NCBI GenBank assembly: GCA_951406725.2
Contig: OX597819.1
Coordinates: 46,128,001-46,192,000, forward strand
DNA from: Octopus vulgaris
Taxonomy: Eukaryota
Direction of reading: 5' to 3'
Length of the DNA: 64,000 bases
Positions within the stretch are counted from its first letter, which is position 1. Every line of letters starts with the position of its first letter. Shown in pieces: positions 41,058 through 41,911 of the stretch. A program made the position numbers and the translations under genes. The notes under the pieces were generated by a model, which was given only the letters and a program-made list of their open reading frames with translations, searched no databases and was not told the DNA's origin.

Positions 41058-41287
41058 GTATATATATATATATATACATATATTATATATATATATATAT
41101 ATATATATATATATATATATATATATATATATATATATATATATATATATATATATATATATATATATATATATATATATATACCGGAGTAAACACATAA
41201 ATGTGAAACAAGGTGGAAAAAAGAGTACTCAAATACCAGTGGTAGAGTAATATGCTTTATTTTAAGCAGCAGAAAATTCAACAAAAT

Positions 41288-41325
41288 CTGTTACTCTGAG
41301 TTTCTCGTTGCCGTTCATCAGACAG
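41288..41325 (-). ncRNA. Minimal type I hammerhead ribozyme (family A), intact core
   Basis: Reverse complement of ctgtCTGATGAacggcaacgaGAAACtcagaGTAacag. Confidence 0.78.
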
Positions 41326-41341
41326 TTTTTTCTAGCAAAAA

Positions 41342-41379
41342 CTGTCTGATGAACGGCAACGAGAAACTCAGAGTAACAG
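41342..41379 (+). ncRNA. Minimal type I hammerhead ribozyme (family A), intact core
   Basis: ctgtCTGATGAacggcaacgaGAAACtcagaGTAacag. Confidence 0.78.
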
Positions 41380-41911
41380 ATTTTGTTGAATTTTCTGCTG
41401 CTTAAAATAAAGTATATATATATATATATATATATATATATATATATATATATATATATAAACACACATATATATATATATACATACATACATATTCATA
41501 TATATGCATGCATAACAGCACAGACGTAGGAGTGCGTTCCTTTGTATATTCAGTCACACACACACACACACACTCACACACACACACACATACACACACA
41601 TACATATTAAATGTGTTTAGTATCATAGAAGCCTCTTGCAGACAAACCCTTTTTCCTATATAACCAGCCTGCTAGACTTTTGCAGCAACTCTAACCAGCT
41701 AACCAGCTTTGTCAACTTCCAATTATCTACCGAACACACCCAAAACAACCAGCCTTCAAACTAACCCAGAAAAACACATCCACTACACCCTCCATCTACA
41801 TTCCTCCACTACCTACATCTTCTAATTCTTTTGTTGTTATTGTACTTGTGCTTCGCTTTTTGTTTTTGATCCGGTTGTTTTTACGGTTGTTTTTGTTGTT
41901 TGTTTCATTTA

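What the first reader, a model, noticed from the sequence alone, without database searches (positions are those of the whole stretch)
41183..41416. Palindromic double-hammerhead cassette: a self-cleaving ribozyme motif on each strand of a near-perfect fold-back
Seen: a ~165-bp near-perfect palindrome whose arms each read ctgt-CTGATGA-acggcaacga-GAAAC-tcaga-GTA-acag, then AATAAA, pointing outward, inside (TA)n. Further copies lie at 25396-25662 and 49350-49506. Known: minimal type I hammerheads with a palindromic stem III mark the pseudo-LTRs of Penelope-like elements and non-autonomous retrozymes and tend to cleave as dimers; PLE insertions often carry an inverted partial pseudo-LTR. Inference: a non-coding, ribozyme-bearing retroelement family. 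Read-through from either strand would give an RNA holding one ribozyme plus its exact antisense, so it either cleaves or is locked in an ~80-bp dsRNA hairpin, a potential ADAR/Dicer substrate in a lineage known for heavy A-to-I editing.
Basis: partly seen in the sequence, partly recalled or inferred. Interest (0 to 1): 0.9.

Follow-up and report, generated by a model that had tools for sequence, protein, structure and literature searches.

The report
Head-to-head stubs of a Penelope retrotransposon
This DNA palindrome is two short end-pieces of a protein-coding Penelope-like jumping gene joined head to head, one of well over a thousand in this genome, and their almost invariant lopsided ends likely record the element copying one RNA from both sides of the DNA break at once.

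Summary
Observation confirmed: 41251-41416 is a palindrome (81 of 83 pairs) with a minimal type I hammerhead motif on each strand, inside (TA)n. It is not a separate non-coding family. Each arm is the pseudo-LTR of an autonomous Hydra-clade Penelope-like element; intact 711-aa RT/GIY-YIG copies lie elsewhere in the genome, and the finding's longer arm matches them at 147-148 of 148 bases. Inverted 5'-truncated copies, one-sided tails and opposite-strand hammerheads are already described for these elements. New here is the regularity. Among short palindromes genome-wide, 1,390 have one tailed and one tail-less end, 14 have two tails and 5 have none. Either arm can be longer, both end types also occur alone, and inner ends pile up at a likely transcription start. 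Best reading (inferred): twin target-primed reverse transcription from two fixed sites 66 nt apart on one RNA, run-off at its 5' end, then microhomology joining. In read-through RNA the antisense arm is made first, so the ribozyme is predicted to be locked, not switching. Cleavage, transcription and editing remain untested.

The parts
41184..41330 (-). Tailed arm: pseudo-LTR positions -80 to +66 (0 = last base of AAAGCATAT after the AATAAA)
   Evidence: 41183-41330 matches the upstream pLTR+tail of intact copy L138 at 147 of 148 bases and L139 at 148 of 148
41184..41249 (-). 66-nt tail = first bases of the next unit (ORF leader); outer end is inferred RT start site 1
   Evidence: Same sequence continues into the ORF in L053 and L138
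41330..41417 (+). Tail-less arm: pseudo-LTR positions -87 to 0; outer end is inferred RT start site 2
   Evidence: 88 of 88 to the L138 unit end; base -4 is T as in 57 of 61 tail-less arms, against C in 57 of 58 aligned tailed arms
41342..41379 (+). Minimal type I hammerhead motif (stem I CUGU/ACAG, core CUGAUGA..GAAA, 2-bp stem II with GCAA loop, palindromic stem III); predicted cut after 41375
   Evidence: Descriptor scan; stem I can extend to 41333-41388; cleavage not tested
41288..41325 (-). Second, identical hammerhead motif on the opposite strand; predicted cut after 41292
41326..41340 (.). Head-to-head junction (-80 joined to -87, 1-nt overlap) beside the CTAG palindrome
   Evidence: the same junction occurs in L093 (older subfamily) and L135 (young subfamily)
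41406..41411 (+). AATAAA (mirror copy at 41261-41256, minus strand)
   Evidence: sequence
41078..41183 (.). (TA)n target, left side
41413..41459 (.). (TA)n target, right side
25396..25662 (+). Second insertion of the family: tailed arm 25504-25662 (+) with intact motif 25521-25558; tail-less arm 25497-25396 (-) with A14>G
49350..49506 (+). Third insertion, decayed by several deletions; no intact ribozyme motif

Best explanation
The palindrome is one insertion of a coding, autonomous Hydra-clade Penelope-like retrotransposon, made of two 5'-truncated pseudo-LTR ends joined head to head in a (TA)n tract, and it likely arose by twin priming on a single RNA. Shown: parent element, intact ORFs, copy numbers, end classes, shared subfamily alleles in both arms. 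Inferred steps: (1) RNA starts at about A-88 in the upstream pseudo-LTR; (2) the RT-endonuclease cuts both strands of (TA)n; (3) one cut end primes at +66 and the other at 0, each on a 3-4 nt TA-like match; (4) the trailing RT displaces the leading cDNA or stalls just before it; (5) both run off the RNA 5' end or drop off earlier; (6) the two cDNA ends anneal through short self-complementary words (CTAG at -85, the hammerhead's own stem III at -51) and prime each other's second strand. The two hammerheads are passengers. In read-through RNA they are predicted to be trapped in an 80-bp hairpin; in the full element they would cleave only as dimers or with protein help. Identity about 0.95; twin priming about 0.6.
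For: Parent: unit of 3,365 bp, pLTR-tail-ORF-3'UTR-pLTR, uninterrupted 711-aa frame in L138, 727-aa open frame in L139; Hydra motifs RWK, DKT, CxCx5C, CxxC, CxH, YRDD present as defined in PMC8557442 section 11. Copies: 7,487 exact 33-mers, 3,422 exact 38-mers, reversed-pattern controls 0. End classes at 125-155 nt spacing: 1,390 mixed, 14 tailed/tailed, 5 tail-less/tail-less, i.e. 1,390 of 1,409 against 50% if arms chose independently. Sample (first 100 of 7,487 hits): 53 pairs and 23 singles, 50 of 53 mixed. Of 45 script-called mixed pairs the tail-less arm reaches more than 10 nt further in 12, the tailed arm in 7; in 5 the tailed arm ends at -6 to +14 and shares little or nothing with its partner. 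Singles are 9 tailed and 14 tail-less, so both sites start independently. Arms agree at 165 of 171 diagnostic sites against 0.55 shuffled; long pairs with long (6/1/2/36, p 2e-5); 35 of 70 arms reaching -84 end within -89..-84 (0.107 per nt, against 0.016 and 0.008 on either side). 6 of 30 shorter palindromes fold on stem III. In vitro, another PLE cuts and extends both strands from two internal RNA sites that define the tail (PMC11167929).
Against: Mixed ends alone are equally predicted by snap-back of a tailed cDNA, and later deletions at a palindrome's centre could shorten either arm. Both arms of L138 exceed one unit, which needs strand displacement over 3.5 kb or two RNAs. Rank correlation of inner ends is weak (rho 0.29, p 0.05). 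Exact junction microhomology is modest: mean 1.5 nt in 12 clean junctions against 0.64 expected, 33 of 47 skipped for nearby mismatches and 2 of the other 14 carry inserted bases. Allele sharing could just reflect one subfamily active at a time. The start site at -88 rests on end pile-up and a loose initiator-like word (consensus recalled), not on RNA data. PMC11167929 reports no start-site difference between the two strands, and priming without homology. No protein phylogeny was built; Pfam and PDB sequence searches of the ORF itself found nothing.
Confidence: 0.7

Rival explanations
1. Same parent, but snap-back: one cDNA starts at +66, folds back on a short palindrome at its end, copies itself to position 0 and is joined there to the other target end; later central deletions trim the arms.
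For: Explains 1,390 of 1,409 mixed ends, allele sharing and folds at CTAG or stem III; fits L138 and L139, where the tailed arm is longer.
Against: Needs the tail-less arm to be a subset of the tailed arm, but it is longer in 12 of 45 pairs, by 0.8-1.0 kb in L127 and L087 and also in L040, L046, L050. 14 of 23 singles are tail-less.
Confidence: 0.22
2. Short copies that keep the -88 start are themselves transcribed from an internal promoter and serve as non-coding templates (a SINE- or retrozyme-like offshoot). Compatible with twin priming.
For: Most arms are under 100 nt; D. virilis Penelope has an internal promoter (PMC2377424 passages); no arm over 1 kb of the older subfamilies was seen in the sample.
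Against: The finding's arm is 147-148 of 148 identical to ORF-bearing copies; junctions are nearly all different, 13 distinct among 14 clean ones; no head-to-tail arrays of the short unit in 76 insertions.
Confidence: 0.15
3. Self-priming on an antisense RNA template, the published proposal for head-to-head Penelope palindromes.
For: PMC3846280 discussion (passages); allows either arm to be longer.
Against: Does not predict the strict one-tail rule, the target-derived T at -4 only on tail-less arms or the pile-up at -89..-84; purified PLE protein uses sense RNA (PMC11167929).
Confidence: 0.07
4. Assembly or library fold-back artefact.
For: No raw read spanning this junction was available.
Against: Fixed biological outer ends that differ between arms, a target-derived base on one arm only, post-insertion differences between arms and over a thousand cases on many chromosomes.
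Confidence: 0.01

Closest known systems
Hydra-clade PLEs (Craig et al. 2021, PMC8557442), including Hydra-1_Obim, Hydra-1_Ajap, Hydra-2_Amil, Penelope-13_HM
   Same: Single RT + C-terminal GIY-YIG ORF with RWK, DKT, CxCx5C, CxxC/CxH; (TA)n target; hammerhead near the 3' end. Hydra-2_aMil has the same stem I (ctgt/acag) and stem III (actc-N-gagt); Penelope-13_HM is listed with a hammerhead on both strands because of an inverted copy.
   Different: A different family from Hydra-1_Obim: unrelated hammerhead stems and a collinear but clearly diverged protein (by eye, 28 of 36 in one conserved block). Unit 3.37 kb with a 1-kb 3' UTR against under 3 kb for most; tail 66 nt against 30-40; stem II only 2 bp with an A-A mismatch at its base.
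Minimal PLE hammerheads (Cervera and de la Pena 2014, PMC4209133)
   Same: Type I, short helix I, extra base after A9, palindromic helix III; dual motifs on opposite strands 100-700 bp apart were already noted in Schistosoma; monomers inactive, dimers weak.
   Different: Helix II is 2-3 bp with a GNRA loop and lacks G10.1-C11.1; 2,077 copies carry a U4C core.
PAc (Poseidon of Anolis) in vitro (Frangieh et al. 2024, PMC11167929)
   Same: Two internal RT start sites bracket the tail; both strands of AT-rich DNA cut and extended; hammerhead not needed for insertion and protein-assisted.
   Different: Different clade. The parts read do not address inverted insertions; here both start sites show 3-4 nt TA-like matches to the target, and genomic pairs use the two sites in a complementary way.
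L1 twin priming (recalled, no call)
   Same: Two target ends prime on one RNA and give an inversion joined by microhomology.
   Different: In L1 the second site is variable and the two cDNAs do not overlap; here both sites are fixed and most arms copy the same stretch.
Non-LTR retrozymes (bioRxiv 10.64898/2026.07.22.740005, part 1 of 5 read)
   Same: Non-coding, type I hammerhead, derived from PLE pseudo-LTRs.
   Different: Retrozymes are head-to-tail tandem arrays; these are head-to-head pairs or singles.

Membership tests
Penelope-like elements, EN+ | Single ORF with RT and GIY-YIG endonuclease | tested here: met
   711-aa ORF with YRDD at 344 and GVVY..YTG at 580-600; homologue P0002 has a Pfam GIY-YIG hit that aligns to this stretch; Atlas neighbours carry GIY-YIG and RVT_1. 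The ORF itself has no Pfam or PDB hit.
Penelope-like elements, EN+ | Partial tandems forming pseudo-LTRs, inverted 5'-truncated copy, tail at one end | tested here: met
   L053, L138, L139; 53 of 76 sampled insertions are inverted pairs
Hydra clade | RWK and DKT motifs in the N-terminal RT region | tested here: met
   RWK at 37, DKT at 113; definition
Hydra clade | CxCx5C linker, CxxC and CxH in the endonuclease, no CCHH finger | tested here: met
   CNCKNESSC at 562, CRLC at 667, CRH at 695; no cysteine between 577 and 666
Hydra clade | Insertion into (TA)n | tested here: met
   TATATA follows 50 of 61 tail ends and ATATAT 55 of 59 tail-less ends
Hydra clade | Generally under 3 kb | tested here: not met
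   Unit 3,365 bp because of a 1-kb 3' UTR; the paper says 'generally', so this is not taken as excluding
Hydra clade | RT groups with Hydra in a phylogeny | not tested
   Published proteins were only compared by eye in the supplement
Minimal type I hammerhead | Core CUGANGA, GAAA, NUH with stems I and II and a palindromic stem III | tested here: met
   stem II is 2 bp with an A-A mismatch at 10.1/11.1; PMC3088659 passages report 2-bp stems II and a U-U mismatch there
Minimal type I hammerhead | Match to an Rfam hammerhead model | tested here: not met
Minimal type I hammerhead | Compensatory base-pair changes | tested here: inconclusive
   Within the family, changes fall at U4, N7, the GNRA loop, 11.1, the stem I bulge and the stem III centre; no double changes seen; published Hydra motifs vary their stems with pairing kept
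Minimal type I hammerhead | Self-cleavage | not testable with these tools
   A single arm prefers a fold that buries the core (-12.2 against -7.5 kcal/mol); stem III duplex between two copies -7.4 kcal/mol
Non-LTR retrozyme | Head-to-tail tandem array of hammerhead-bearing monomers | tested here: not met
   0 of 76 sampled insertions; definition

The most novel reading that the evidence does not exclude
Penelope-like elements integrate by obligatory two-site twin priming: the two cut strands of the target take the two fixed start sites on one RNA, one each. That single rule yields the one-sided tail, the head-to-head inverted copy and, when it happens at the RNA's 5' pseudo-LTR, thousands of 80-bp double-hammerhead hairpins. 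This genome holds a base-resolution record of it (1,390 : 14 : 5), intact active-looking copies to test it with, and a large source of perfect dsRNA for editing.
Probability: 0.55. Interest if true: 0.65.

Novelty: new member of a known kind. Interest (0 to 1): 0.45.

Why it matters
The ribozyme palindrome itself is an expected product of a known element class. Its value is as a test bed. How Penelope-like elements form tandem and inverted structures is named as an open task in PMC8557442, and the published idea for head-to-head palindromes is antisense self-priming. The one-tail rule, the two independent start sites and the run-off point give sharp predictions for the existing in vitro assay, and intact natural copies supply the protein. 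If the host is a coleoid cephalopod (inferred only from genome size, repeat content and kinship to Hydra-1_Obim), an estimated 4,000 near-perfect inverted repeats from one family (extrapolated from 53 pairs per 100 hits and 7,487 hits) would be a defined class of candidate editing or small-RNA substrates; that part is untested.

Tried and rejected
Rfam: no hammerhead model matched. Pfam on three family ORF stretches and PDB sequence searches: nothing for the ORF itself. Single-sequence structure model unusable, mean pLDDT 33.9; no alignment-based model was obtained, so the fold is unconfirmed. Sequencing runs: no RNA holder on record; 4 of 24 runs laid, all contigs, two only guessed to be RNA, so strand, starts, ends, expression and editing cannot be read; A>G counts of 6, 7, 8 and 15 are not evidence. 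Hammerhead cleavage as the source of arm ends: my main sample cannot show ends 3' of -54, so a second class was drawn (377 palindromes at 45-75 nt spacing); in the first 30, 10 of 60 ends fall at -42..-40 and 13 at -51, with noisy alignment of older copies, so no clear pile-up at the cut. A test of mutation load in core positions failed on a coordinate slip and was not repeated. Host gene context: 64 window ORFs gave only transposase HTH and zinc-knuckle hits above cut-off, so read-through transcription is unknown. The 49350 copy as an older family: its near matches are ordinary copies. Lunse et al. 2017 could not be read; known only through PMC6765202 passages. PMC5932611 passages held nothing on this mechanism. 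The scan's earlier notes returned nothing.

Full report
1. Observation. The stretch 41251-41416 pairs at 81 of 83 positions and folds at -143.4 kcal/mol with 0 of 200 shuffles as stable. A descriptor scan of both window strands finds exactly three hammerhead-like motifs: 41342-41379 (+), 41325-41288 (-) and 25521-25558 (+). The minus arm of the 25396 copy has A14>G, and the 49350 copy has lost core pieces. Rfam does not recognise the motif. The finding's left 66 bases (41184-41249) lie outside the palindrome.

2. It is a repeat with a coding parent. A search of the 2.8-Gb own genome gave 710 candidates, 40 scored, many with an inverted partial copy beside them. In the 30 loci fetched, the outer ends were fixed and the fold point varied. 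Walking upstream from L003 led to an ORF. L053 shows pseudo-LTR, tail, ORF, 3' UTR, pseudo-LTR. L138 holds an uninterrupted 711-aa frame in a 3,365-bp unit, within a 7.6-kb palindrome; L139 is also open. The finding's tailed arm matches these at 147 and 148 of 148 bases. The protein has RWK, DKT, YRDD, CxCx5C, a GIY-YIG-like GVVY..YTG, CxxC and CxH and no cysteine where CCHH would lie, the Hydra-clade signature of PMC8557442 (section 11 read). It has 1,074 relatives at E<=1e-20 among 7,999 candidates scored, the best at 58%. The paper's supplement (part 2 of 59 and search passages read) lists Hydra-1_Obim with a different hammerhead, so this is another family. Exact counts: 7,487 for a 33-mer, 3,422 for the window's 38-nt motif, 2,077 for U4C forms; controls 0.

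3. Anatomy of insertions. Numbering: 0 is the last base of AAAGCATAT behind the AATAAA; +1..+66 is the tail. I took the first 100 of the 7,487 hits (contig 1, first 38 Mb). The script called 47 head-to-head pairs and 31 unpaired arms. By hand, four of those arms form two pairs cut by locus edges (L055/56, L062/63; junctions not fully seen) and four have a short or decayed partner (L066, L095, L120, L126). That gives 53 pairs and 23 singles. Fifty pairs have one tailed and one tail-less end, one has no tail, two end inside the tail, none has two full tails (p 5.5e-12 against 0.5). One two-tailed pair, L013, was seen in the biased first search. Genome-wide, for 125-155 nt between the AATAAA boxes, the counts are 1,390 mixed, 14 two-tailed and 5 tail-less loci (the symmetric patterns count each locus on both strands). 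Among 45 mixed pairs the tail-less arm reaches over 10 nt further in 12, the tailed arm in 7, and 26 are within 10 nt; in 5 the tailed arm ends at -6, +10, +12, +14, +14. Singles are 9 tailed and 14 tail-less. Base -4 is C in 57 of 58 aligned tailed arms but T in 57 of 61 tail-less arms, so the target's TA overwrote it. Inner ends pile up at -89..-84: 35 of 70 arms that get there stop there, 0.107 per base against 0.016 before and 0.008 after; 10 of 23 singles end between -88 and -74. A-88 sits in CCATTCT, an initiator-like word (consensus recalled), 222 nt before the ATG. Arms of one insertion share 165 of 171 subfamily alleles against 0.55 when shuffled. In a shorter class (377 loci), 6 of the first 30 fold exactly on the palindromic stem III.

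4. Mechanism. Shown: items 2 and 3. From PMC11167929 (parts 1-2 of 4 read; supplements not opened): a purified PLE protein cuts and extends both strands of AT-rich DNA, starts at two internal RNA sites that bracket the tail, is predicted to dimerise, and does not need its hammerhead. Inferred: the two target ends prime at +66 and 0 of one RNA; priming at the 5' pseudo-LTR runs off at -88 and gives the common short palindrome, priming further downstream gives long ones; the cDNA ends join by short self-complementary words. Independent choice of site is excluded by 1,390:14:5. Pure snap-back fits that ratio but not longer tail-less arms or tail-less singles, unless later deletions are invoked; I give it 0.22. 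Against my reading: microhomology is modest (mean 1.5 nt in 12 clean junctions, 0.64 expected; 33 of 47 skipped), rank correlation of inner ends is weak, both arms of L138 exceed a unit, and no RNA evidence supports the start site.

5. The ribozyme. It fits the minimal type I pattern of PMC4209133 (parts 1-2 of 4 read), where monomers were inactive and dimers weak. Stem I can extend by 8 bp past a 1x1 loop. Stem II is 2 bp with a GNRA loop that stays GNRA across subfamilies (GCAA, GGAA). A single arm prefers a fold that pairs the core with stem III (-12.2 against -7.5 kcal/mol); two stems III form a -7.4 duplex. In the palindrome the motifs point outward, so on either strand the antisense arm is made first; each of five growing transcripts folded is already zipped, and stem I has probability about 1e-51. 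The older subfamilies carry U4C (mean pairwise difference 0.029 and 0.014 against 0.009 for the U4 form; 8, 7 and 22 arms); PMC3088659 passages say U4C lowers activity in vitro. The element spread in thousands of copies with that weaker core, in line with the ribozyme not being rate-limiting (inference).

6. What is known. [quoted passage not shown] Opposite-strand hammerheads 100-700 bp apart are in PMC4209133, and Penelope-13_HM is listed with one on each strand. A 2026 octopus repeat annotation counts recently active Penelope families but has no hit for hammerhead, ribozyme, palindrome or Hydra in its main text (PMC13282606 passages; supplements not seen). [quoted passage not shown] L1 twin priming is recalled.

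7. Verdict. Interest 0.45, carried by the quantitative end rule, which makes an open question in PLE integration directly testable. Host identity as an octopus is inferred, not established, and editing of these hairpins is untested.

Noticed in passing
L138 (G000:C1:64213900-64222800) 598-8198: A 7.6-kb palindrome whose two arms each exceed one full unit; the right arm has an intact 711-aa ORF, the left a frameshift; again one tailed and one tail-less end. Templates longer than a unit, read past the hammerhead uncut, must exist (tandem read-through or a circle).
   Followed up: partly
window 41353-41362: The stem II hairpin in its older form (A10.1-U11.1) is letter for letter the loop 2 listed for Nematostella Penelope-2_NV in the published Hydra table, where it caps a longer stem II; this family may have lost the basal helix.
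   Followed up: no
genome-wide: At least three subfamilies step from core CCGACGA to CCGATGA to CTGATGA while position 11.1 goes from T or G to A; the non-canonical U4C core is the older one.
   Followed up: partly
L179, L185, L187, L189, L192, L195: Mini-palindromes folded exactly on the hammerhead's palindromic stem III (9-nt overlap in five of the six).
   Followed up: partly
window 30635-32290: 267-bp inverted repeats (99%) 1,122 nt apart; the arms and interior look by eye like RTE-type LINE 3' sequence with other repeats inside; possibly another head-to-head or nested insertion.
   Followed up: no
window 17174-17926 (-): 251-aa open stretch resembling the C-terminus of an RTE-type LINE ORF (by eye; no Pfam hit).
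   Followed up: no
window 44539-44988 (-): Tc1/mariner-type transposase N-terminus (Pfam HTH_SB, E 1e-12).
   Followed up: no
window 1434-1686 and 40860-41058: Copies of a common SINE-like repeat; at 1434-1686 two of them form an inverted pair (Rfam plant miRNA chance hit).
   Followed up: no
P0001-P0120: Over a thousand Hydra-type ORFs in public assemblies, mostly on 2.2-3.3 kb contigs and unnamed; the clade is far larger than the 27 families tabulated in 2021.
   Followed up: no
L053 3846-4045, L138 4834-4967: The tail is in frame with the ORF in L053 and lies in a 222-nt leader with two upstream ATGs, one inside the hammerhead core.
   Followed up: no
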